From positions 1,541,414 to 1,605,413 of the forward strand of contig JADJRA010000001.1 of NCBI GenBank assembly GCA_016712475.1: a stretch of 64,000 bases of DNA, in the 5' to 3' direction. Made by a program: the position numbers and the translations under genes. Source of the DNA: Deltaproteobacteria bacterium. Its GTDB lineage: Bacteria; Myxococcota_A; Polyangia; Nannocystales; Nannocystaceae. This document shows, piece by piece, positions 16,262 to 51,236 of the stretch. Position 1 is the stretch's first letter. Every line of letters starts with the position of its first letter. A model generated the notes under the pieces. The model saw only the letters and a program-made list of their open reading frames with translations, searched no databases and was not told the DNA's origin.

Positions 16262-17191
16262 TCACTCCTCGAAGTCGTCCACGCGAAAGGCTTCGCGCGC
16301 GCGCACCTTCTCCGCCACCCCCGGCGACAGCTCCACCGCTCGCGAGTACACCCGCGAGTCGCTCATGCAGCTCGCCGACTCGTAGCTCAGCTCGGCGATC
16401 CCGACGCCGGTCGCGTCGTCGACGAACACGCCCACCACCGCAGGGTCGCTGCGATCCAGCGTCATCTCTGGTTCTTCGCCGCGCCAGCCCGGCATGCGCG
16501 TCGACTGCAGCACCTGTGCACCCCGCACCCGCACGATGAAGTGGCCGCCGTGGTACAGCGCCTCGGCGGCTCGCTGGCCGGGCTCCGGCAGCTCATCGAC
16601 AGGCGGCAGCTCGGGGCCGCTGCCGCGGTACCAGTACGGCTGCAGCGGCAGCGCTTGCATCGGTCGCCAGCCGATCGCGAGCTCGGCGTTGATCGACGCA
16701 ATCCGCTGGGCGATCTGCTCCCGCTCGTCCCGGCAGGGCCGACCCCAGGCCCCCTCGGTCGCCTCGTAGATCGCTTCGCCGTCGAGCACGATCGAGCGCG
16801 AGAGCACCGACTCGTCGCGGCGTCGCAGCTCGATCGCCAGCTCACCGACGAAGTCGGCGTTGCCACCATCGTCGCGGTCGACGACCGCGATCGCACCGCC
16901 ATCCAACCGCACCGCCGGAAAACCCTCGGCGAAGACCTCGTGCTCGCAGTCGCCACTGCCGGCGGTTCGCGGCTCCAGCCGCAGTCGCGGTGCATCATCG
17001 GACGGGCGGATCGAACCCAGGGCGTCGATCACGTTGCCGTCGTCGTCGGGGATCGCAGCGCGCCGGACGGCGAGCTCCGTCGCCCGCGGCGCGACCTCCA
17101 GCGGCTCGTAGTTCGCCTCGAGGGGCGGCGCCATGCAAGCACTGGACGAACCCAACACGAGCAGCACAGAGATCCGCCTCGGCATCGTCAT
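16262..17191 (-). CDS. Hypothetical lipoprotein.
   Basis: Start MTMPRRISVLLVLGSSSAC (lipobox) and a protein-like frame. It is convergent with the upstream gene. Confidence 0.65.
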   Translation of the reverse strand: MTMPRRISVLLVLGSSSACMAPPLEANYEPLEVAPRATELAVRRAAIPDDDGNVIDALGSIRPSDDAPRLRLEPRTAGSGDCEHEVFAEGFPAVRLDGGAIAVVDRDDGGNADFVGELAIELRRRDESVLSRSIVLDGEAIYEATEGAWGRPCRDEREQIAQRIASINAELAIGWRPMQALPLQPYWYRGSGPELPPVDELPEPGQRAAEALYHGGHFIVRVRGAQVLQSTRMPGWRGEEPEMTLDRSDPAVVGVFVDDATGVGIAELSYESASCMSDSRVYSRAVELSPGVAEKVRAREAFRVDDFEE

Positions 17192-42967: not shown

Positions 42968-43024
42968 CCATCCGATCATTTGACCCCGCGGGTCCGGCCG
43001 CGCGAGGCTTGGTGCAACCTGGGC

Positions 43025-46000
43025 ATGGACGCACCGCGAACACTGCGATCACTCGCGAAGGACCTCGGGCTGGAGTGGATCGACGGGCCCGCGACCGCCA
43101 CGCTCGAGGCCGACATCGCCCGCGCGAATCGAGCGTTCAACAGGAACGACCACGAGAAGATCGGCTTCGGCGCCAGGGATGTCAGCACGGCCGGTGCGCT
43201 CGTGGGCGCGCTCGCGTCGCTGGTGCGCAAGCCCAACCTCGCGCCGATGCTCGCGCGCGTGCGTGCTCGCGTCGACGAGGTCACGCCGGCCGAGGGCGAG
43301 CCCACCATCGACTTCGGCGTCGGCGAAGCCATCGCCCGGGCCGCCCGCGACGACACCGACCGCGTCTTCGATGACCTCTTCCTCGCCCGCGCGCTCCTCG
43401 AGCAACCCGGCGAGCTCGTGCACGGCGGTCTCGCGCCGTTCGGGCTCTCGGCCGAGGCGCTACGGGGCGGGCTGGACGATGCACTCGCGCTCGAGCTCGA
43501 CGGCGAACGCGATCGACCGCTCGCCGACAACCAACGCGAGCTCGACGACGCGGTGTTCCGTGCCGCCGGCCGTCGGCTCGGCGACCTCGGCGAGGCCGCG
43601 CGGTGGCTCGAGCGCGGCCACGACGGCGACGAGGCGATGTACGCCGCCGGTAGCCCGAGCGCGCGACGCATCGGCTCGCACCGCGCGCTGCGACGACACG
43701 CGCGCAGCAGCGGTGAGCTCCGCCTGGTGCCGCGGTTGCTGGCCGACTTCGCGTTCTCGGACGCGGCCCGCGAGGTGCTGGGGCTGGCCGATCGCTTGCG
43801 CGGCGATGCTCGACACGTCCACGTCGAGCACCTGATCGTCGCGCTCTACGACGCCAAGGCGAGTCCCGCCCGCGCGGCGTTCGATCGAGCCGGCGTCTCG
43901 CGCGACGCCATGCTCGCGCGGCTGCACGGCAGCGAGCTCGCCGAGCAGCGCTCGGCAACCTACGTCGCCAGCGAGCGCGTACCGCCGCTGTCGTCCCATG
44001 CCGCGCTCGCGCTGGTCCACGCCGCGCGGCACGCCGCGAACCGCGGCGATGCGACCCTCCGCGGTCGCGATCTGCTCACCGGCGTGTTCGCGGTCGAGGG
44101 CTGCCACATCGTCGAGAAGTTCACCGACGTCCGCGTCGCGCTGGCCAGCGGACCCGCGCCCGCGCGCGAGCCCGACGAGACTCGGACCCCCGCCGCGCCG
44201 CAGCATCCGATGGTCGTCGCGTCGAGCGTGGCGCGCTTCGGCGGCGACGGCCTCGACGGCCCCGACGTGCTCGGCTTCACGCTCGAGGTCGATGCGCTCG
44301 CGCGCTTGATTGCCTCGGAGGGCATCGATCCGCCGCTGTCGATCGGGCTCTTCGGTGAGTGGGGCTCGGGCAAGAGCTACTTCATGCGACGCCTGCGCGA
44401 GCGGATCGAGCAGCTCGCGGCCGCCACCCGCCGTCGCCGTGAGCGCGACGACGTGCCGCCACCGGCGTACGTGGGCCACGTGGTGCAGGTCGAGTTCAAC
44501 GCGTGGAACTACGTCGAGGTCGATCTGTGGGCGAGCCTGGTCGCGCACATCTTCGATCGGCTGCACGCCCACGTGATCGACGAGCCCGGCCTCGAGCAGC
44601 GCCAGTGGGAGAGCTTGCTGCACCGCCTCGACGACGCCGAGAACCGCCGCCACGATGCCAAGCAGGCGCTCGAGCTGGCGCAGGCGCGGCTCGACATGCG
44701 CCGCCGCGAGCAGGCGGCCCGCGAGCGCACGCTCGCCTATCAGATCGAGATCCTCCGCCGCCACGCCAAGCTCAAGCGACCGATCGCGGAGATCGAGGGC
44801 ACGCTCGGCATCGCGGCCGCGCGCGAGTTGTGGGACGCGATCGTGCTCCGCAGCAGCCGCGCGACCGCGGTCATCAAGGCCATGCCCGACTCGCTGCGGG
44901 CGGCACGATCGCTGTTCACCGGTCCGGCAGCGTGGTGGCTCATGGCTGCGATCGTGCTCGTGATCGGCGGCTTGCTGCTGGCGCGCCAGCTCGAGTGGCT
45001 GCCCGATCTCGCGGCGGTGGCCGCCGCGATGCCGCTGCTGCTGGCGTGGGTGCGCAAGGCGCTCGGCCGTAGCGACGCGCTGCTCGCCGCCATCGAGGCG
45101 TTCCAAGAGGGGCTGCTCGAGCTCGAGCGCTCGAAGCAGGAGGTCGATCGTGAGGCACTCGAGCGCCTGCGCGACGACGCGATGGCGGTCGAACAGGCCC
45201 GCGCCGAGCACGACGCCGAGCGGGCGCGCGTCGACTCGTTGCGCGACGAGATCGCGCGGCTGTACCCCGGTGAGCAGCTCGCCGATTTCCTGGCCGATCG
45301 CGCGGCCAGCAGCGACTACCGCCGCCACCTCGGCCTGCCCGCGCTGGTGCGACGCGACTTCGAGCGGCTCGGCCGACTGGTGCGGCCGCACACCCACCGC
45401 CTACCACGCGATCACGTGACCGGCCTCGCACTGGCCCAGGCGCCGCAGCACCTACTCGACATGCTGCATCGCCTCGAGCCCGACGCGACCGAACCGTTCG
45501 AGGTCGTGCGAGTCGAGCGGTCCGGCGACCGCGTGCGAGCGTTCGCACCCGACGGGCGCTGCGCGATCTTCAGTTGCTGCGAGCCGATCGAGGGCGACGA
45601 GCACCCTGCGCCCTACGAGATCGATCTGCGCTCCGTCGACGACGAGCCGCTCGGGGGCCCCCGCGACGAGCTGGGCCGTCTGGGTCGGCGCGTGCCGGAG
45701 CGCCTGGTCGACGGCCTGCGACCCGCGATGATTCCCGCGCGTCTCGCCGAGCTGCTGCGCCGCGATGCGCCGCTGCGGGGCGAGCGACTCGTGCACGACA
45801 CCACCCTCGACCGCTGGGTGCTGACCGATCACGACGGCGCCCGCCGGGTCGAGATCGGCTTCGACGGCGAGCTCGCGATCGTCGAGATCGGTTGGCCGAT
45901 GCACCCGACGATCGAGCGCATCGTGCTGTACATCGATGACCTCGATCGCTGCCCGCCCGAGCGCGTGGTCGAGGTGCTGGGCGCGGTGCACCTGCTGCTG

Positions 46001-47074
46001 GCGTTCCCGCTGTTCGTGGTGGTGGTGGCCGTCGACGAGCGCTGGCTGGTGGGCTCACTCGAGGATCAGCACGCCCAGCAGCTGCGACCCGCCGCGGCCC
46101 CGAACGCCGGCAACACGCTCGCGATGGGCGCGTTCGACGGTCTCGCGACCCCCCGCGACTACCTCGAGAAGATCTTCCAGATCCCGTACTGGGTGCCGCG
46201 CATGACCACCGCGTCGGCGCGCGACCTCATCGCCGACATGGTCGCGCAGGGCGAGCGCATCGAGCTGCCGCGCGCCGACCCGACCCGCGTGGTGTGGGTG
46301 GATCGCCCGCGACCGAGCTCGACGCCGCCGCCCGCGGACGGCCCCCTGCCCGAGGCCGAGACCGCGCCGGCCGAGGTCCCGGGCCCCGACGTGGAGGACG
46401 AGCCGAGCGGTGGCAGCGTGCCGGGACCCGACGTCGAGTCCAGCGAGGGTGACGACGGCGGCATGCCGGGCTTCATGAGCCTCGCCGGTACCGCGGTGAG
46501 CAACGCGGTCGAGGCGATCTCGGAGGCGTTCTCCGGCGCCGCCGAGCCCACCGCCGCGCCGACGACGGACGACGAGTCGGGCGCCGACGACGAGCTGCTC
46601 CGCGTGCAACCGATCTCGATCGGCGAGCGCGAGCGACTGGCGCTGCAGGCCCTGGTGCCGTTGGTGCAGAAATCGCCGCGCGCGGTGAAGCGCTTCGTCA
46701 ACGTCTATCGCGTCATCCGCAGCACGCTCGGTGATCAGGCCGACGTGTTCATGCAGCACGACGACGACGAGGTGCCGTTCGGACCCGCGACCGTGCTCAT
46801 CGCGATGATGGTCGGCGACCCCGAGGCCGGCGCCTCGTTGATCGCCGCGCTCGAGCAGGACGGTGACGACGACGGCTCGCTGCACGACAGCATGCAGCGG
46901 TGGATCGACGCCAAGCCGACGCTCGGCGAGGCCACGAGCATGGCGCTCACGCTCGCGCTGACTCGCGCCGGCTGGGCTCGGCAGCGTCGGGTCGATCTGC
47001 GGGGCGTGGTCGGTCGCGTGCGCCGCTTCTCGTTCGGCGCGCGCAACCTCGGCGTCGGCCAGCAGCGACACTGA
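43025..47074 (+). CDS. KAP-family P-loop NTPase with TM helices inserted in the NTPase domain and N-terminal Clp_N-like helical repeats; about 1350 aa.
   Basis: Walker A (GLFGEWGSGKSYF). KAP-typical FNAWNY. Two TM helices (WWLMAAIVLVIGGLLLA and AAVAAAMPLLLAWV). Walker B (IVLYIDDLDRC). N-terminal Clp_N-like repeats (HVHVEHLIVALYDAKASPARAAFDRAGVSRDAMLARL). Confidence 0.75.
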   Translation: MDAPRTLRSLAKDLGLEWIDGPATATLEADIARANRAFNRNDHEKIGFGARDVSTAGALVGALASLVRKPNLAPMLARVRARVDEVTPAEGEPTIDFGVGEAIARAARDDTDRVFDDLFLARALLEQPGELVHGGLAPFGLSAEALRGGLDDALALELDGERDRPLADNQRELDDAVFRAAGRRLGDLGEAARWLERGHDGDEAMYAAGSPSARRIGSHRALRRHARSSGELRLVPRLLADFAFSDAAREVLGLADRLRGDARHVHVEHLIVALYDAKASPARAAFDRAGVSRDAMLARLHGSELAEQRSATYVASERVPPLSSHAALALVHAARHAANRGDATLRGRDLLTGVFAVEGCHIVEKFTDVRVALASGPAPAREPDETRTPAAPQHPMVVASSVARFGGDGLDGPDVLGFTLEVDALARLIASEGIDPPLSIGLFGEWGSGKSYFMRRLRERIEQLAAATRRRRERDDVPPPAYVGHVVQVEFNAWNYVEVDLWASLVAHIFDRLHAHVIDEPGLEQRQWESLLHRLDDAENRRHDAKQALELAQARLDMRRREQAARERTLAYQIEILRRHAKLKRPIAEIEGTLGIAAARELWDAIVLRSSRATAVIKAMPDSLRAARSLFTGPAAWWLMAAIVLVIGGLLLARQLEWLPDLAAVAAAMPLLLAWVRKALGRSDALLAAIEAFQEGLLELERSKQEVDREALERLRDDAMAVEQARAEHDAERARVDSLRDEIARLYPGEQLADFLADRAASSDYRRHLGLPALVRRDFERLGRLVRPHTHRLPRDHVTGLALAQAPQHLLDMLHRLEPDATEPFEVVRVERSGDRVRAFAPDGRCAIFSCCEPIEGDEHPAPYEIDLRSVDDEPLGGPRDELGRLGRRVPERLVDGLRPAMIPARLAELLRRDAPLRGERLVHDTTLDRWVLTDHDGARRVEIGFDGELAIVEIGWPMHPTIERIVLYIDDLDRCPPERVVEVLGAVHLLLAFPLFVVVVAVDERWLVGSLEDQHAQQLRPAAAPNAGNTLAMGAFDGLATPRDYLEKIFQIPYWVPRMTTASARDLIADMVAQGERIELPRADPTRVVWVDRPRPSSTPPPADGPLPEAETAPAEVPGPDVEDEPSGGSVPGPDVESSEGDDGGMPGFMSLAGTAVSNAVEAISEAFSGAAEPTAAPTTDDESGADDELLRVQPISIGERERLALQALVPLVQKSPRAVKRFVNVYRVIRSTLGDQADVFMQHDDDEVPFGPATVLIAMMVGDPEAGASLIAALEQDGDDDGSLHDSMQRWIDAKPTLGEATSMALTLALTRAGWARQRRVDLRGVVGRVRRFSFGARNLGVGQQRH

Positions 47075-47082
47075 CGCTGGCG

Positions 47083-47605
47083 TCACGCGCCCGGATCGAG
47101 CTCGCCGGGTGGCGGATCGGTGCCCGGCGGCTTGCTCGGCCCGCCTTCGCTGGGATCGAGCTGACCGGGGGCGCCGCCGCCGGGCGATGGCACCTCGACG
47201 GTGTGCAGCTGACACCCGCCGCAGCTCTGGCCGTCGTCGGAGATGCCCGAGCACTGACCGCTGCAGGTGAGCACGCGGTCGCTGCCGCCCGCCTCGCAGG
47301 CCTGGGCCTCGCTGCACCCACTGGCGCAGCGACACTGGAAGCCGGTCACGCCGTCGTCGAGGTAGACGACGCCGTTCTTCGGATCGATTTCGTAGTCGAC
47401 GCCATCGGCGAGCACGATCTCGGTGGTGGACTTGACGGCGTAGGTCTTGGTCTGGGAGCCGACCTGCACGACGTCGTCGTCGCTGCACTCGGTGACGTCG
47501 TCGAGCTTGCCGCCGCGTAGCTCGAGACTGTCGTCGTCGTCGAGCGCCGCGCAGCCGAGGCCGCCCAAGAACATCGAGAGGAGGATCGAGGTGGTGTAGC
47601 GCATG
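47083..47605 (-). CDS. Small secreted Cys-rich lipoprotein with a Pro-rich C-terminal tail; paralog A.
   Basis: Start MRYTTSILLSMFLGGLGCAALDDDD. A Cys cluster (CRCASGCSEAQACEAGG...CSGQCSG...CGGC). Tail DPSEGGPSKPPGTDPPPGELDPGA. Confidence 0.6.
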
Positions 47606-47620
47606 GGTGCTGGCTCCGCT

Positions 47621-48130
47621 TCAGAACGTGGGGTCGACCGAGCCGGGTCCGGGGTCGCTGCCCGGCGGCTTGGGGTCGGGGGTGTTGGTGGGGTCGAGCT
47701 GGCCCGAGCCGGGATCGGCCGGATTGGGCGGTGGATCGGCGCGGTGCCAGCCGCAGCCCCAGCACGGCCGACCATCGCTGCTGATGGTGCCGTCGCAGGT
47801 GCCGGTGCAGATGGCGTCGATCGGGCCGGCGCTCACCTGGCAAACGCTGCCACCGCAGCCGCCGTCGCAGCGGCAGACGTACGTCGCCGCCTTGTCGATC
47901 GTCACGGTGGTGCCGCCCTTGTCGAGCTCGATCTCGTCGCCGAGCGACTCCAACCGCGATGGCGAGCTGATGCGCGCGTATTCGTCTTCGTAGGTCTGAT
48001 ACGCCGCGCCCGGATCGACGCACTCGAGCGCCTCCCCGCGGAACTCGTCTGCATCGCCGCGACTGCGTGCGACCGGATCGCAGCCGATCGCGAGCGCCAG
48101 CACCCCCCACGTCCATGGTCGTCGATTCAT
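47621..48130 (-). CDS. Small secreted Cys-rich lipoprotein; paralog B of 47083..47605.
   Basis: Start MNRRPWTWGVLALAIGCDP. Cys cluster (CRCDGGCGGSVCQ...CTGTCDG...CWGCG). Tail DPGSGQLDPTNTPDPKPPGSDPGPGSVDPTF. It shares architecture and several motifs with paralog A. Confidence 0.6.
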   Translation of the reverse strand: MNRRPWTWGVLALAIGCDPVARSRGDADEFRGEALECVDPGAAYQTYEDEYARISSPSRLESLGDEIELDKGGTTVTIDKAATYVCRCDGGCGGSVCQVSAGPIDAICTGTCDGTISSDGRPCWGCGWHRADPPPNPADPGSGQLDPTNTPDPKPPGSDPGPGSVDPTF

Positions 48131-48248
48131 GCGCAGCTAGACCCGGCGGCGAGGATTTCGATCGTGCAAAGTGCCCGCGACCCGCGGGGCCGAGAGAACC
48201 TTTGCCGCCAGCCGCTGTCCTCGCTTCGTGCGTCTTCGCCTGGCCACC

Positions 48249-49655
48249 TCGATGCTCCTGCTGCCGTGCTGCACGCCCGTCGTGGCCGCCCCCCGGTCGA
48301 CCACCCCCGCGCAGACCACTCCCGCGCAGACCACTCCCGCGCAGACCGAGGCTGCTCCGATCGCGGCCGCCGACGACGACCCCGCGACGCCGCGCTGGTG
48401 CATCCCGAGCGCTCCACCGCCGACGCCACCCGGTCCGAGCGTCGCCCACTACGATTGCCAGCGTCACGCCACCGCGGTGGTCCGCGCGGTCGATGCCCGA
48501 CTGCGCAAGCTGTGGACTCCCGCGCGCTCGCCCAGCCGGCTCGAGATCCATCGCACCTGCGATCCGCTCGCCGACACGATCACCCGCGTGGTGATCGAGA
48601 GTGGCTACGGCCACGGCTTCAGCCTGCACCTGTGGCAGCTCGAGCGCACCGACGACCGCGACTGGGCGGTATCGCGGCTCGACTACCGCGGCGACAGTGC
48701 CGATGGCGTCGCGAGCGTCGGTCGCGTCGGCGCACGCGTGATCGATCCGCTCCTCGCGGCCTCGCGCGTCGCGTTGGTGTCCGACGCGTTCGAGGTCACG
48801 CTGCCGTCGGAGGGACTCAGCCTGACCGCGGCGATGGGCTCCGGCGACTTCCATCGCGTCGTGCGCCTCGAAGACGACGACGGCGACGTGCTCGAGCGCC
48901 GCTTCACCGGCTACCCCGGCAACGGCCTCGAGGAGGCGCCCGTGGTGGTCGCCAGCGACGCGCTGCTCGAGGTGCTCGAGGCGGTGCCGCTCGCCGAGCG
49001 CCCCGCCGAGCCAGTCGATCGCGGGTTCTTCGTCGAGCGCTACGCCGCCGCCGCGCCCCACTTCGACGACGAGTTCTTCTGGTGGGTCACCGAGCGCTAC
49101 ATCGTGATGGCGCGCTCGTTCGGGCAGGCCTCGCTGATCCCGAGCCTGGTCGAGCGCGCCACCAAGCCCGGCGAGCACTCGGTCGCGCGCGCGCGTGAGA
49201 CCGCCGTCGCCGCGCTCGCGGCGGTGACGGGCCACGACCTGCGTGTCGGTGCCGACGGCAAGCCCCGCGCGCTCGAGCTCGCGGCGGCCGACTACGCCAC
49301 TGCATGCCTGCCGGCCGGCCCGCCAGTAGGGCTGCACGCGAGTCCGATGGTGCGCCGGGCGGCGTGTCGGCCAAGCCGTGGGCCATCGGCCAATCTGCTG
49401 ACCACTCGGCTGCCGAGCTGGCACCGCAGCACCATCTTCGTCTCGAAGGAGAGAGACGATGACCATGGACATGCACGACGAGATCGCGATCGTCACCGGG
49501 GCGAGCCGCGGGCTCGGGCTGGCACTGTCGCACGCGCTGGCACGACGCGGAGCGAAGGTCGCCATGCTCGCCCGCGACGAGGACGCGCTGGCACGGGCGG
49601 CGCGCGAGGTCGGCGAGTTCGGCGAGGTGCTGGCGATCGCCGCCGACATCGGTGA
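48249..49655 (+). CDS. Hypothetical secreted protein with TTPAQ x3 repeats; the true 3' end is uncertain and probably lies before the SDR start.
   Basis: Signal-like MLLLPCCTPVVAAP and a protein-like middle (YDCQRHATAVV..., FFWWVTERYIVMARSFGQ). The last ~90 codons of the listed ORF are Arg/Gly noise overlapping the SDR gene. Confidence 0.4.
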   Translation, partial: SMLLLPCCTPVVAAPRSTTPAQTTPAQTTPAQTEAAPIAAADDDPATPRWCIPSAPPPTPPGPSVAHYDCQRHATAVVRAVDARLRKLWTPARSPSRLEIHRTCDPLADTITRVVIESGYGHGFSLHLWQLERTDDRDWAVSRLDYRGDSADGVASVGRVGARVIDPLLAASRVALVSDAFEVTLPSEGLSLTAAMGSGDFHRVVRLEDDDGDVLERRFTGYPGNGLEEAPVVVASDALLEVLEAVPLAERPAEPVDRGFFVERYAAAAPHFDDEFFWWVTERYIVMARSFGQASLIPSLVERATKPGEHSVARARETAVAALAAVTGHDLRVGADGKPRALELAAADYATACLPAGPPVGLHASPMVRRAACRPSRGPSANLLTTRLPSWHRSTIFVSKERDDDHGHARRDRDRHRGEPRARAGTVARAGTTRSEGRHARPRRGRAGTGGARGRRVRRGAGDRRRHR

Positions 49656-50187
49656 TCCCACCCAGGCGCCGTCGATCGCCGCTCGCGTCGCGGCGCGCTT
49701 CGGGCCGGCGACCCTCGTGGTGCACAACGCCAGCACGCTGGGCGCGGTGCCGCTGCAGCTGCTGGCCGACACCGACCCGCGGATGTTCGCCGCGACGATG
49801 GCGACCAATCTCATCGGCCCGTTCGCGCTGTCCCATGCCGTGGTCGGATCGATGGTGCTGCGCGGGCACGGCACGCTGGTGCACATCAGCTCCGACGCAG
49901 CGGTCGAGCCGTATCCGCGCTGGGGCGCCTATGCGGTGTCGAAGGCTGGCCTCGATCACCTCGCGCGCATCTGGGCCGCGGAGCTCGACGGCACCGGGGT
50001 GCGAGTGCTCGCGATCGACCCCGGCGAGATGGACACGCAGATGCACGCCGACGCGATCCCCGACGCCGACCGCGGCACGCTGGCACGCCCGAGCGACGTG
50101 GCCGCGCGCATCGTCGCACTGCTCGGCCGAAGCGAGCGCGCCTTGCCCGTGCGCTTGCAGGCCGCCGACATCGAGGTGACGACATGA
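49459..50187 (+). CDS. SDR-family NAD(P)-dependent oxidoreductase.
   Basis: TGASRGLG cofactor-binding motif and catalytic YAVSKAG (YxxxK). Confidence 0.85.
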   Translation: MTMDMHDEIAIVTGASRGLGLALSHALARRGAKVAMLARDEDALARAAREVGEFGEVLAIAADIGDPTQAPSIAARVAARFGPATLVVHNASTLGAVPLQLLADTDPRMFAATMATNLIGPFALSHAVVGSMVLRGHGTLVHISSDAAVEPYPRWGAYAVSKAGLDHLARIWAAELDGTGVRVLAIDPGEMDTQMHADAIPDADRGTLARPSDVAARIVALLGRSERALPVRLQAADIEVTT

Positions 50188-51236
50188 AGGCCCGCGGTAC
50201 CCCCGACAAGGGTGGCGACACCCAGCGCCTGCTGGCGATCGACAGCGCCAGCGGCGAGGTCTTCGAACGCACCGTGGGCGAGCTGCCGCAGCTGCTGCGC
50301 GCCGGCGATCTGGTGGTGCTCAACGATGCCGCGACGATGCCGGCCTCGCTGCAAGCTCGGGCCAACGGTGCCGCGATCGAGCTGCGCCTGGCGGGCCCGC
50401 CCGAGCAGGGTCGCTGGCTCGCGGTGCTGTTCGGCGACGGCAGCTGGCGCGTCGACACCGACGCCCGACCGGCACCGCCGCGGCTGGAGCTGGGCGCACG
50501 CATCGAGCTCGACGGGCGCGTGCAGGCCCACGTGGTCGCGGTCGATCCCACGTCGACGCGGCTGGTGTGGCTGGCGTTCGACGTGCCGGAGGCAGCGGTC
50601 TGGTCGCTGCTGTATCGACGGGGTCAACCCGTGCAGTACTCGTACCTGGCGCACGCGCTCGCGCTGTCCGACGTGCAGACCAGCTATGCCGGGCGACCGT
50701 GGTCGGTCGAGATGCCGTCGGCCGGTCGACCGCTGACGATCGCCACACTGTTGGCGCTGCGACGTCGTGGCATCGAGGTCGCGATGCTCACCCACGCCGC
50801 AGGGCTGTCGGCGACGGGTGATCCCGCGCTCGACGCCCGGTTGCCGCTGCCCGAGCGCTACGACCTGCCGGCGAGCACCGTCGTTGCGGTCGCGGCCGCG
50901 CGGGCACGGGGCGGCCGCGTCGTCGCGGTCGGGACCTCGGTCGTGCGCGCGCTCGAGGGCAGCGCGGCGCAGCACGGCGGCGTGCTGCGGGCCGGCTCGG
51001 GGCTCACCGATCTGCGGATCTCGCCGACGTTCACCCGTCGCGTCGTCGACGGCGTGCTCTCGGGCGTGCACGAGCCTGGCAGCAGCCACCACGCGCTGCT
51101 CGGAGCGTTCGCGGATGCATCGCTGCTGGAGCACGCCCACGCGTGGGCGCTCGCCCACGACCTGCAGGTGCACGAGTTCGGCGACTCGACGCTGGTGCTG
51201 CCCGGCCTCGCCCACCGCGATCGGCTCGCGGCCTGA
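50184..51236 (+). CDS. queA: S-adenosylmethionine:tRNA ribosyltransferase-isomerase (QueA)-like protein.
   Basis: QueA-like blocks (LLAIDSASGEVFERTVGELPQLLRAGDLVVLNDAATMPASL; HEPGSSHHALLGAF), about 350 aa. It overlaps the SDR stop (ATGA). Confidence 0.55.
   Translation: MKARGTPDKGGDTQRLLAIDSASGEVFERTVGELPQLLRAGDLVVLNDAATMPASLQARANGAAIELRLAGPPEQGRWLAVLFGDGSWRVDTDARPAPPRLELGARIELDGRVQAHVVAVDPTSTRLVWLAFDVPEAAVWSLLYRRGQPVQYSYLAHALALSDVQTSYAGRPWSVEMPSAGRPLTIATLLALRRRGIEVAMLTHAAGLSATGDPALDARLPLPERYDLPASTVVAVAAARARGGRVVAVGTSVVRALEGSAAQHGGVLRAGSGLTDLRISPTFTRRVVDGVLSGVHEPGSSHHALLGAFADASLLEHAHAWALAHDLQVHEFGDSTLVLPGLAHRDRLAA

What the first reader, a model, noticed from the sequence alone, without database searches (positions are those of the whole stretch)
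42980..48130. Giant membrane-inserted KAP NTPase with N-terminal Clp_N-like repeats, flanked by a tandem pair of small Cys-rich secreted paralogs
The 1364-aa ORF has the full KAP P-loop signature: GxWGSGKS, FNAWNY, TM helices inserted between Walker A and the IDDLDRC Walker B. Its first ~420 residues look like two double Clp_N repeats (EHLIVAL...), a substrate/adaptor-recognition module I do not associate with KAP NTPases. Immediately downstream, on the opposite strand, sit two paralogous ~170-aa lipoproteins (Cys cluster plus DPxPGxLDP tails). KAP NTPases recur in defence islands and are largely uncharacterised. A Clp_N-KAP fusion beside secreted paralogs could be an undescribed sensing or abortive-infection-like module, or a membrane quality-control ATPase.
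Basis: partly seen in the sequence, partly recalled or inferred. Interest (0 to 1): 0.6.

Follow-up and report, generated by a model that had tools for sequence, protein, structure and literature searches.

The report
Membrane KAP ATPase with Clp_N domain
A 1349-residue membrane-anchored ATPase of the KAP family carries one Clp-type substrate-recognition domain at its front end and belongs to a widespread, uncharacterised family whose relatives often carry immune-type effector domains, whereas the two small lipoprotein genes next to it are an unrelated cassette.

Summary
The sequence features are real. The gene (most likely 43025..47074, 1349 aa) is a KAP-family P-loop NTPase. It has intact Walker A and B motifs and a two-helix hydrophobic hairpin, flanked by long coiled coils, inserted between them. 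Residues 244-385 are a genuine Clp_N domain by profile and by predicted fold. There is only one such domain, not two: residues 1-243 are a fast-evolving helical region with no significant Clp_N signal.

Clp_N-KAP is a recurrent architecture, not unique to this gene. This KAP subfamily has at least 528 relatives across many phyla, all with the hairpin at the same position and with highly variable N-termini (TIR, trypsin-like, WD40, PG-binding, Clp_N). The closest solved fold is RdrA of the RADAR anti-phage system.

The two Cys-rich lipoproteins are true paralogs, but they are not partners of the KAP gene. The 58%-identical orthologues lack them, and the pair occurs elsewhere without a KAP gene.

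Neither the window nor ten related loci look like defence islands, and no partner gene is conserved.

Best reading: a stand-alone, nucleotide-driven membrane switch of a conflict-type family, with Clp_N as the protein-recognition module. A defence role is inferred, not shown. I rate it a new variant of a known kind, of moderate interest.

The parts
43025..47074 (+). Clp_N-KAP NTPase gene (1349 aa from the ATG at 43025; the ORF opens at a TTG at 42980)
   Evidence: GC3 frame plot. Pfam KAP_NTPase E=5.9e-25. The N-terminus matches P0001 and the 1349-aa NCBI entries. dN/dS is 0.20 against the 94% orthologue.
43025..43753 (+). N1 region, aa 1-243: helical, lineage-specific and fast-evolving; not a demonstrable Clp_N domain
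   Evidence: No Pfam hit at E<=1. Only sub-threshold Clp_N-profile matches at about aa 100-160. pLDDT is mostly below 60. Only P0001, P0004 and P0062 match this part among 1.84 billion representatives. dN/dS is 0.42.
43754..44179 (+). Clp_N domain, aa 244-385 (two repeats: '...HVHVEHLIVAL...' and '...LRGRDLLTGVFAVEGC...')
   Evidence: Pfam Clp_N at aa 265-295, 21.4 bits against a cut-off of 20.7. Model pLDDT 85-89. Foldseek top hits are ClpC1/ClpC/ClpB/ClpA N-domains, E 7e-5, TM 0.6-0.75 on the target. The family profile hits ClpC NTD 6emw at E=1.6e-13.
44354..44377 (+). Walker A, GEWGSGKS (aa 444-451)
   Evidence: Sequence. G444, W446, G447, G449 and K450 are invariant in 45 relatives.
44495..44512 (+). 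FNAWNY motif (aa 491-496), a signature of this KAP subfamily
   Evidence: F491, N492, A493, W494 and Y496 are invariant. It was one of the two peptide patterns used to retrieve at least 528 relatives.
44591..44899 (+). Ascending helical arm: one long helix at aa ~523-577, then further, less confidently modelled helices up to aa ~625
   Evidence: AlphaFold model: long helix H124-178 in model numbering, i.e. aa 523-577. The only PDB profile matches of this part are coiled-coil proteins.
44924..45058 (+). Hydrophobic hairpin, aa ~634-678 (two predicted membrane helices joined by a loop of about 3 residues), inserted inside the P-loop domain
   Evidence: Hydropathy peaks of 2.35 and 1.66. A hydrophobic 1-2 helix segment sits about 195 aa after Walker A in 78 of 78 family members.
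45062..45307 (+). Descending long helix (aa ~680-761), leading into the conserved 'SSDYRRHLG...RRDFERL' block
   Evidence: Model helix H264-362, i.e. aa 663-761. Y765, G770 and D778 are invariant; R759 and R776 are nearly invariant.
45389..45892 (+). Lineage-specific beta-rich insert (aa ~789-956) just before the Walker B strand
   Evidence: Present only in the window protein and P0001-P0004. Walker A to Walker B spacing is 524 aa here against roughly 285-460 aa (mostly 360-415) in the family. pLDDT is 80-92 with beta strands. No Pfam hit. dN/dS is 0.15.
45917..45952 (+). Walker B, RIVLYIDDLDRC (aa 965-976)
   Evidence: R965, D971, D972, D974, R975 and C976 are invariant.
46277..46594 (+). Acidic, Pro-rich low-complexity linker (aa ~1085-1190) inserted in the KAP domain
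   Evidence: Sequence. pLDDT is about 30-39. dN/dS is 0.56. Relatives have a variable-length equivalent.
46595..47071 (+). C-terminal helical part of the KAP domain, with the 'SPRAVKRFVNVYR' block and the terminal 'RVRRFSF'
   Evidence: The Pfam KAP_NTPase best stretch runs to aa 1233. P1218 is invariant; R1219, K1222, R1223, N1226, Y1228, R1334 and F1337 are nearly invariant. dN/dS is 0.04.
47083..47604 (-). Cys-rich lipoprotein, 'F type' (173 aa). A neighbour, not part of the KAP unit
   Evidence: Paralog of the next gene. Orthologues L007_199 and L010_186 are 44-45% identical. Absent next to the 58% KAP orthologues.
47621..48130 (-). Cys-rich lipoprotein, 'G type' (169 aa). A neighbour, not part of the KAP unit
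   Evidence: Only 3 homologous clusters among 5.8 billion clusters. Orthologues L007_177 (38% identity) and L010_175 (48%) are each followed by an F-type gene, with no KAP gene nearby.

Best explanation
The gene encodes a stand-alone, inner-membrane-anchored KAP-family P-loop NTPase.

Shown by the sequence and the models:
- The order of parts is: a cytosolic N-terminal region, one Clp_N domain, then the first half of the P-loop (Walker A).
- A long helical arm leads to a two-helix membrane hairpin, and a long helix leads back.
- A lineage-specific beta-rich insert follows, then the second half of the P-loop (Walker B) and the helical C-terminal part of the KAP domain.
- Because the hairpin has two helices, both halves of the ATPase and the Clp_N domain should lie on the same, cytoplasmic side.

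Inferred mechanism:
- The protein oligomerises at the membrane and acts as a nucleotide-dependent switch.
- The Clp_N domain, perhaps with the fast-evolving N1 region, recognises a protein or peptide ligand, as Clp_N does for adaptors and substrates in ClpA/B/C.
- Ligand binding changes ATP turnover or assembly. The helical arms pass that change to the membrane hairpins, perturbing the membrane or arresting growth.
- This would resemble the membrane NTPases PifA and Tmn.

Relatives place TIR or trypsin-like effector domains in front of the same Clp_N-KAP core. I therefore think the family belongs to biological-conflict (anti-phage or abortive-infection-like) systems. This member has no recognisable enzymatic effector, so the membrane core itself would be the output.
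For: - KAP identity and intact catalytic motifs are established.
- Strong purifying selection acts on the P-loop, the helical arms with the hairpin, and the C-terminus (dN/dS 0.02-0.05). The N-terminal region evolves fast (0.42).
- The hairpin position is conserved in 78 of 78 relatives.
- The Clp_N homology and fold are supported.
- Of 51 proteins retrieved with the N-terminal 425 aa, 43 are KAP NTPases. Among the 51, 8 match the TIR_2 model (3 match the TIR model) and 6 match Trypsin_2.
- In an unselected sample of 75 family N-termini, 7 match TIR_2, 4 PG_binding_1, 3 WD40, 3 Clp_N and 2 Trypsin_2, and most match nothing. This is a hypervariable-module pattern.
- Clp_N is distributed patchily on the core similarity map, which indicates domain shuffling.
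- No conserved partner gene appears in ten loci, so it is a single-gene unit.
- Published experiments show that KAP NTPases fused to variable regions give phage defence (PMC13552941). Tmn, a P-loop NTPase with two helices inside the P-loop domain, forms a membrane decamer that defends through ATP-coupled Mg2+ export (PMC13001434).
Against: - This member has no recognisable effector domain.
- The window is ordinary chromosomal DNA: NadA, AcrB, a QueA-like gene, HflX-type GTPase domains, SCO1 and transporters. The only PADLOC matches listed are single-protein hits to kinase-type and other generic models, and no tRNA gene is present. Each summary table lists only the 25 commonest families, so a rarer integrase or transposase match could have been missed.
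- Local synteny with the downstream SDR and QueA-like genes is kept at 58% identity, which suggests stable vertical inheritance.
- G+C content is the same as the surroundings.
- Ten related loci are mostly metabolic, with only single RT, Cas1 and kinase hits.
- Relatives are rare on plasmids (7 of 72,556 records) and absent from phage records.
- Matches to the defence models QatA, PifA and PDC-S20 cover only the shared P-loop blocks and are far below cut-off (QatA 68.8 bits against 600).
- Oligomerisation, topology, ligand and output are all inferred.
Confidence: 0.45

Rival explanations
1. It is a housekeeping ATPase for membrane protein quality control or scaffolding. The Clp_N domain recruits misfolded or tagged proteins, or a Clp adaptor, to the membrane. 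The KAP NTPase drives assembly or disassembly of a membrane complex, with no role in conflict.
For: - In all characterised proteins, Clp_N is a substrate or adaptor docking domain of proteostasis machines; the PDB hits are ClpA/B/C, ClpC2 and Hsp104.
- The chromosomal neighbourhood is housekeeping and not mobile.
- Synteny with the SDR and QueA-like genes is conserved at 58% identity.
- The core is under strong purifying selection.
- This member has no effector domain.
Against: - The family is scattered across phyla, and no relative above about 35% identity was found among 185,579 species representatives (one row shows 50% over its best segment only). This is atypical of a core housekeeping function.
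- Relatives carry TIR and trypsin-like domains in front of the same Clp_N-KAP core, which is typical of suicide or immune effectors.
- N-terminal modules are shuffled.
- The nearest solved fold is a defence ATPase.
Confidence: 0.25
2. This is the first reader's module: the Clp_N-KAP protein works together with the two adjacent secreted Cys-rich lipoproteins, for instance as an envelope sensor pair signalling to the ATPase.
For: - The genes are adjacent and convergent, with 8 nt between the stop codons.
- The arrangement is kept in the 94% orthologue.
Against: - The 58% orthologues have the SDR gene directly after the KAP gene, with gaps of about 124-134 nt and no lipoprotein genes.
- The 46% orthologue has a different, unrelated Cys-rich neighbour.
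- The G-type/F-type pair recurs in L007-L009 and L010 without a KAP gene.
- The orientation is convergent, so they are not co-transcribed.
- The 94% locus is too close a relative to be informative.
Confidence: 0.04
3. It is a decayed or inactive remnant: a former effector-Clp_N-KAP defence gene that lost its N-terminal effector and now has no function, or a different one.
For: - The N1 region has no detectable domain, evolves fastest (dN/dS 0.42), and shows a faint in-register trace of a Clp_N half-repeat.
- Relatives have 2-3 tandem Clp_N domains or enzymatic heads in that position.
Against: - The reading frame is intact over 1349 codons.
- All invariant family residues are kept.
- dN/dS of the core is 0.02-0.05.
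- The same architecture is kept in orthologues down to 46% identity.
Confidence: 0.08

Closest known systems
KAP family P-loop NTPases (Pfam PF07693; named after Kidins220/ARMS and PifA; defined by Aravind, Iyer, Leipe and Koonin, Genome Biol 2004, cited from my own knowledge and through PMC13001434 and PMC13552941)
   Same: Pfam match well above cut-off. Walker A and the hhhhDDLDR Walker B are present. Membrane helices interrupt the NTPase domain. Accessory domains are variable.
   Different: This subfamily has long helical arms on either side of a two-helix hairpin, plus an acidic low-complexity insert. This member adds a Clp_N domain and a beta-rich insert of about 170 aa before Walker B.
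RdrA, the ATPase of the RADAR anti-phage system (PDB 8fnt, 8fnu)
   Different: Only 13-14% identity. The PADLOC scan of the protein lists no RdrA model among its matches at E<=1. RdrA is soluble, with no membrane hairpin (my own knowledge). It works with the RdrB deaminase, and no deaminase family appears among the 25 commonest Pfam families listed for the window's genes.
[quoted passage not shown]
   Same: A single-gene defence protein. Two membrane helices lie inside the P-loop domain. Long helical cytosolic arms act as the sensor, and the membrane assembly itself is the output.
   Different: A different Pfam family: YobI-ATPase did not match this protein at E<=1, though 3 of 51 relatives match it. 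The Tmn sensor is a C-terminal solenoid, whereas here the accessory domains are N-terminal. The oligomeric state here is unknown.
Enterococcal KAP-fusion defence proteins (EF_KAP and metagenomic relatives; PMC13552941), and PifA of the F plasmid
   Same: KAP NTPase fused to variable regions. Defence by EF_KAP depends on its Walker B motif; the other KAP fusions tested also protected against phage.
   Different: Those proteins carry their variable regions C-terminally and are linked to serine recombinases on mobile elements. PifA lacks membrane helices (as stated in PMC13001434). The match to the PifA model covers only about aa 414-466.
Clp N-terminal domains of ClpC/ClpC1/ClpA/ClpB, and the stand-alone ClpC2 and ClpT
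   Same: Homologous double-repeat helical domain. The Glu of the first-repeat 'EH' motif is conserved.
   Different: It is attached to a KAP NTPase rather than an AAA+ unfoldase. The second repeat has 'R[HD]LL' instead of 'TEH', and there is a family-specific, largely conserved Cys. The ligand is unknown.
QatA of the Qat system
   Same: It is the best NCBIfam and PADLOC model for the Walker B and following blocks.
   Different: 68.8 bits against a cut-off of 600, and only about 100 residues are matched. No Qat model appears among the 25 PADLOC families listed for the window's other genes.

Membership tests
KAP family P-loop NTPase (PF07693) | Match to the family HMM above the curated cut-off | tested here: met
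   88.5 bits against a cut-off of 20, E=5.9e-25, in two stretches.
KAP family P-loop NTPase (PF07693) | Intact Walker A (GxxGxGKS/T) and Walker B (hhhhDDxDR) | tested here: met
   GEWGSGKS at aa 444-451 and LYIDDLDRC at aa 968-976. The residues are invariant in 45 relatives.
KAP family P-loop NTPase (PF07693) | Transmembrane helices inserted within the NTPase domain | tested here: met
   Hydropathy segments at aa ~635-655 and 659-677 lie between Walker A and Walker B. The same position holds in 78 of 78 relatives. This is a prediction only.
KAP family P-loop NTPase (PF07693) | NTP hydrolysis | not testable with these tools
   Needs biochemistry.
Clp_N domain (PF02861, double repeat) | Match to the repeat HMM above cut-off | tested here: inconclusive
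   21.4 bits against 20.7 when aa 1-442 is scanned alone, but 14.7 bits in the full protein; only one of the two repeats is hit. Orthologues carry precomputed Clp_N hits.
Clp_N domain (PF02861, double repeat) | Homology to solved Clp N-domains by profile | tested here: met
   The profile of 18 family domains, with the window sequence first, hits ClpC NTD 6emw at E=1.6e-13, and also ClpB, ClpA, ClpC1, ClpC2, ClpV and Hsp104.
Clp_N domain (PF02861, double repeat) | Eight-helix pseudo-twofold fold | tested here: met
   pLDDT is 85-89 for aa ~240-380. The 50 Foldseek PDB hits shown are all Clp/Hsp100 N-domains or Clp_N-type proteins (ClpC2, ClpT); best E 7e-5, TM on the target up to 0.75.
   No Pfam hit at E<=1. 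The family profile scores -1.1 in the window protein and at most 9.0 bits in orthologues, over a half domain only. hhalign E 0.02-0.04 with probability below 4%. The model is of low confidence there.
Qat system (QatA) | Full-length QatA match and QatBCD neighbours | tested here: not met
   68.8 bits against a cut-off of 600, aa 962-1070 only. No Qat model appears among the 25 of 33 PADLOC families listed for the neighbours.
RADAR (RdrA/RdrB) | RdrA sequence family membership and an adjacent RdrB adenosine deaminase | tested here: not met
Tmn / YobI-like P-loop NTPase (PF20693) | Match to the YobI-ATPase model | tested here: not met
   Not among the Pfam hits at E<=1 for this protein. 3 of 51 relatives match it at a best E of 3e-5.
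Defence island / mobile element resident | Neighbourhood enriched in known defence or mobility genes | tested here: not met
   Window: the listed families are housekeeping, with only single-protein PADLOC hits to kinase-type and other generic models, and no tRNA gene. Ten related loci: mostly metabolic, with single RT, Cas1 and kinase hits. The sample is small, and each summary table lists only the top 25 families.
   The pair is absent beside the 58% and 46% orthologues. The pair occurs without a KAP gene in L007-L010.

The most novel reading that the evidence does not exclude
The [effector]-Clp_N-KAP proteins could form an undescribed class of membrane-embedded immune sensors. In this reading the Clp_N domain, borrowed from the proteostasis machinery, detects an infection cue. 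Candidate cues are a phage protein, a phospho-arginine-type degradation tag, or a phage inhibitor or adaptor that normally targets host Clp unfoldases, so that Clp_N acts as a decoy or guard, as ClpC2 does for ClpC1-targeting antibiotics. The signal would then fire the KAP ATPase. The output would be either an N-terminal TIR or protease, or, in effector-less members like this one, the ring of membrane hairpins itself.
Probability: 0.2. Interest if true: 0.7.

Novelty: new variant of a known kind. Interest (0 to 1): 0.42.

Why it matters
KAP NTPases were predicted twenty years ago to act at membranes in conflict systems, and they are only now being validated as anti-phage proteins. This finding points to a large, phylogenetically broad KAP subfamily: at least 528 loci among the species-representative genomes scanned. 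Its members share a fixed core of helical arms and a membrane hairpin, with swappable N-terminal heads.

A sizeable subset places a Clp_N domain directly in front of the ATPase, often behind a TIR or protease domain. If Clp_N is the trigger-recognition module, this would link the substrate-recognition logic of Clp unfoldases to bacterial immunity. It would also give a tractable single-gene system, because cultured Corallococcus and Myxococcus relatives exist.

For this particular gene the practical message is more sober. It is an annotated 'hypothetical protein' that can now be named. Its neighbouring lipoproteins should not be bundled with it.

Tried and rejected
1. I tested for a second Clp_N domain in aa 1-243 with Pfam at E<=1, hhalign of subregion alignments, a jackhmmer family profile and AlphaFold. 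Only faint, in-register, non-significant signal appeared at about aa 100-160, so I rejected it as a demonstrable domain.

2. I tested linkage between the lipoproteins and the KAP gene. It is rejected by the orthologous loci and by the pair's own homologues. The Cys-rich protein next to the 46% orthologue is unrelated.

3. The defence-island hypothesis found no support from PADLOC or Pfam scans of 44 window proteins and 111 neighbours of ten Clp_N-KAP loci. These summary tables show only the top 25 families and do not say which protein matched.

5. A search of 5.8 billion protein clusters with the beta-rich insert (aa 785-962) returned nothing, not even the 94% orthologue that contains it. I treat this as uninformative.

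6. The promoter and terminator scan around the gene found nothing above chance.

7. The literature search found no paper mentioning both Clp_N and KAP NTPases. The 2004 KAP paper is not held in the library.

8. My simple gene caller mis-called the region 39-43 kb. I corrected it using the frame plot and the gene calls of L001.


Full report
**What is in the sequence**

The window has about 70% G+C, so long spurious ORFs abound. A GC3 frame plot shows one continuous + strand coding signal from about 43.0 to 47.07 kb. The ORF opens at a TTG at 42980 (1364 aa).

The first ATG, at 43025, gives 'MDAPRTLRSL...'. That is the N-terminus of the 94% orthologue P0001 and fits the 1349-aa entries in NCBI: 'hypothetical protein [Deltaproteobacteria bacterium]', MBK6922433.1 and MBK8235174.1, on contigs of up to 3.67 Mb. 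I therefore use 43025..47074 and 1349-aa numbering.

Pfam gives KAP_NTPase at E=5.9e-25.

Two hydrophobic segments, at about aa 635-655 and 659-677, lie between Walker A and Walker B and are joined by a loop of about three residues.

**The N-terminus**

Pfam Clp_N is borderline on this sequence. It scores 21.4 bits against a cut-off of 20.7 when aa 1-442 is scanned alone and 14.7 bits in the full protein, and only aa 265-295 is hit. Three independent lines settle that aa 244-385 is a true Clp_N domain:

1. phmmer of aa 1-425 against 1.84 billion representatives found 53 proteins, nearly all matching aa ~244-425. Of 51 scanned, 32 pass Pfam Clp_N (best E 6e-13) and 43 are KAP NTPases.
2. A profile of 18 such domains, with the window sequence first, hits solved ClpC, ClpB, ClpA, ClpC1, ClpC2, ClpV and Hsp104 N-domains. 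The best is 6emw at E=1.6e-13.
3. An AlphaFold model has pLDDT 85-89 over aa ~240-380. All 50 Foldseek PDB hits shown are Clp/Hsp100 N-domains or Clp_N-type proteins (E down to 7e-5, TM on the target up to 0.75).

The claim of two double repeats fails:

- aa 1-243 has no Pfam hit even at E<=1.
- A jackhmmer profile of the family domain scores -1.1 there in the window protein. It reaches at most 9.0 bits (E 8e-3) in an orthologue, over half a domain only.
- hhalign gives E 0.02-0.04 at probability below 4%.
- The model is of low confidence there.

The faint matches are in register with a first Clp_N repeat, and other family members do carry two or three bona fide tandem Clp_N domains (P0060, P0063, P0065, P0069, P0070, P0077). 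A degenerate remnant is therefore possible but not demonstrable.

**The KAP core**

An AlphaFold model of aa 400-1349, built on 45 sequences, has mean pLDDT 72.7, with 88-95 in the P-loop. In order it shows:

- the first P-loop half;
- a long helix (aa ~523-577);
- a poorly modelled hairpin region;
- a helix of about 100 residues (aa ~663-761);
- a confidently predicted beta-rich insert (aa ~789-956);
- the Walker B strand, then a disordered acidic/Pro-rich stretch (aa ~1085-1190);
- a helical C-terminal part.

**The family**

Of these, 528 were confirmed as relatives by tblastn, so 528 is a lower bound. They occur in Acidobacteriota, Gemmatimonadota, Actinomycetota, Myxococcota, Bacteroidota, Planctomycetota, Chloroflexota and Proteobacteria. 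Nearly all of the 80 loci kept are 23-35% identical to the window protein over their best segment; two reach 39% and 50%.

- In 78 of 78 family ORFs with both motifs, a hydrophobic segment of one or two helices sits about 195 aa after Walker A.
- Walker A to Walker B spacing is roughly 285-460 aa, mostly 360-415, in the family and 524 aa here. The difference is the beta-rich insert, which only the close orthologues P0001-P0004 share.
- N-terminal regions are hypervariable. Of 75 scanned, 7 match TIR_2, 4 PG_binding_1, 3 WD40, 3 Clp_N (13 of 80 with the more sensitive local profile) and 2 Trypsin_2; most match nothing.
- Among the first homologue list are TIR-Clp_N-KAP (P0019, P0020), trypsin-Clp_N-KAP (P0018, and P0028 from Corallococcus llansteffanensis), EVE-KAP, LRR-KAP and tyrosinase-KAP.
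- On a core-identity map, Clp_N-bearing members cluster only partly: 12 of 25 have a Clp_N-bearing nearest neighbour, against about 4.5 expected by chance. Outside its own orthologue group, the window protein's nearest relatives mostly lack Clp_N. This indicates domain shuffling.

**Selection**

Against the 94% orthologue, overall dN/dS is 0.20. By region:

| Region | dN/dS |
|---|---|
| First P-loop half | 0.02 |
| Helical arms plus hairpin | 0.05 |
| C-terminal part | 0.04 |
| Clp_N | 0.15 |
| Beta-rich insert | 0.15 |
| N1 (aa 1-243) | 0.42 |
| Low-complexity linker | 0.56 |

The gene is clearly functional. Its front end changes 10-20 times faster than its motor. This rests on a single pairwise comparison.

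**Neighbourhood**

The 94% orthologue has identical synteny, which is uninformative. In the two 58% orthologues the KAP gene is followed, after about 124-134 nt, by the SDR gene. In L004, the longer downstream contig, the QueA-like gene follows the SDR gene. These are the genes that lie after the lipoproteins and gene H in the window. The one upstream region that could be read (L005) differs from the window's. The 46% orthologue has other neighbours.

So the lipoprotein pair and gene H are an insertion of about 2.3 kb in this lineage.

The window's other genes are housekeeping: NadA, a TetR-RND efflux set, DUF2167, a polysaccharide deacetylase, an amino-acid permease, the SDR and QueA-like genes, a radical-SAM gene, Band 7, HflX-type GTPase domains, SCO1 and enoyl-CoA hydratase. 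The PADLOC families listed are single-protein matches, mostly kinase-type models (PD-T4-6, C3a189, mad6) plus MkoA and PDC-M51A, and there are no tRNA genes.

For ten Clp_N-KAP loci from different phyla I scanned 111 flanking proteins, within about 7 kb on each side in nearly all cases. No family was shared by more than three proteins, and the content was mostly metabolic. There were single hits to an RT, a Cas1 and a kinase.

Relatives occur on only 7 of 72,556 plasmid records and in no phage record.

The unit is therefore a single gene. In this small sample it is not demonstrably resident in defence islands.

**The lipoproteins**

The genes at 47083..47604 and 47621..48130 are paralogs (34% identity, E=7e-16). 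Both have signal peptides ending in a lipobox-like Cys, nine further conserved Cys (C...CRC..GC...C...C.G.C...DG..C..C..H) and Pro-rich tails with 'G-x-[LV]DP' repeats.

Only three homologous clusters exist among 5.8 billion. In L007-L009 and L010 a G-type gene is again followed by an F-type gene, with orthologous pairing, and no KAP gene is nearby.

They are an independent, narrowly distributed two-gene cassette of unknown function.

**Interpretation**

Shown:

- KAP membership;
- intact motifs under strong constraint;
- one Clp_N domain;
- a conserved intramolecular hairpin flanked by long helices;
- hypervariable N-terminal modules in the family, including TIR and protease domains;
- no conserved partner gene;
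- a nearest solved fold that is a defence ATPase.

From the literature:

- KAP NTPases fused to variable regions confer phage defence in Enterococcus; for the one tested in detail (EF_KAP) defence depends on the Walker B motif (PMC13552941).
- PifA is a KAP defence protein acting at the membrane, as described in PMC13001434.
- Tmn, a related P-loop NTPase with two helices inside the P-loop domain, forms a membrane decamer. Its cytosolic arms bind a phage protein, and its ATP-coupled Mg2+ export arrests infection.
- ClpN repeats have been noted in another predicted conflict system (PMC7159879).

Inferred: this protein is a stand-alone, nucleotide-driven membrane switch. Clp_N, perhaps with N1, recognises a protein ligand, and the membrane core is the output.

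The rival reading, a housekeeping membrane proteostasis or scaffolding role, is favoured by the ordinary chromosomal context, the conserved local synteny and the absence of an effector domain. It cannot be excluded.

**Novelty**

The Clp_N+KAP domain combination is already visible in precomputed Pfam annotations of public proteins, and the gene itself is deposited as a hypothetical protein. I found no paper that describes the combination. KAP-fusion defence proteins as a class are now published.

I therefore rate it a new variant of a known kind, of moderate interest. The value lies in the family-level pattern rather than in this locus.

Noticed in passing
window 47083-48130 (- strand); L007 8607-9752; L010 403-1505: The two Cys-rich lipoproteins form a conserved tandem cassette (G type then F type). 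They have nine conserved Cys after the lipobox Cys and C-terminal 'GxLDP' repeats. Only 3 homologous clusters exist among 5.8 billion. The function is unknown and there is no Pfam family.
   Followed up: partly
L010 1524-2099 (- strand): In a 2.1-kb contig, the gene convergent on the lipoprotein pair is the C-terminus of a Clp/Hsp100-type AAA+ ATPase (D2 domain: '[26 protein letters not shown]...'). In the window, the convergent gene is the Clp_N-KAP protein. This is probably coincidence, but it is curious.
   Followed up: no
window ~49325 (compare L001 ~16277-16286): A 10-bp deletion relative to the 94% orthologous contig removes the stop codon of the unknown 356-aa gene H (about 48252-49322). 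The ORF then runs on to 49655, overlapping the start of the SDR gene at 49459. This could be real variation or an assembly error.
   Followed up: partly
window 47083-49322 compared with L004 4178-4302 and L005 5953-6087: The lipoprotein pair and gene H are a block of about 2.3 kb present between the KAP and SDR genes in this lineage. The block is absent in relatives whose KAP is 58% identical. No repeats or mobility genes were examined at its borders.
   Followed up: partly
family loci L011-L090 (N-terminal regions, alignment A4): Four family members carry a PG_binding_1 (peptidoglycan-binding) domain in front of the KAP core. If those domains are functional, the N-terminus would be periplasmic in those members. 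That conflicts with the cytosolic placement assumed for TIR and Clp_N heads and would need an extra N-terminal membrane helix.
   Followed up: no
L006 6554-7033 (- strand): The 46% KAP orthologue is also followed by a convergent Cys-rich secreted-type protein, but it is unrelated in sequence to the window's pair (BLASTP E > 0.4).
   Followed up: yes
window 45377-45910 (aa 785-962 of the KAP protein): The beta-rich insert is confidently modelled (pLDDT 80-92) but has no Pfam match. A word-indexed search of 5.8 billion protein clusters returned nothing, not even the 94% orthologue that contains it, which looks like a limitation of that search rather than a biological result.
   Followed up: partly
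window 49459-51236; L004 4302-5929: An SDR gene and a QueA-like (Queuosine_synth) gene overlap by 4 nt, and the pair is conserved next to the KAP gene at 58% identity. A QueA-like gene paired with an SDR is an unusual arrangement.
   Followed up: no
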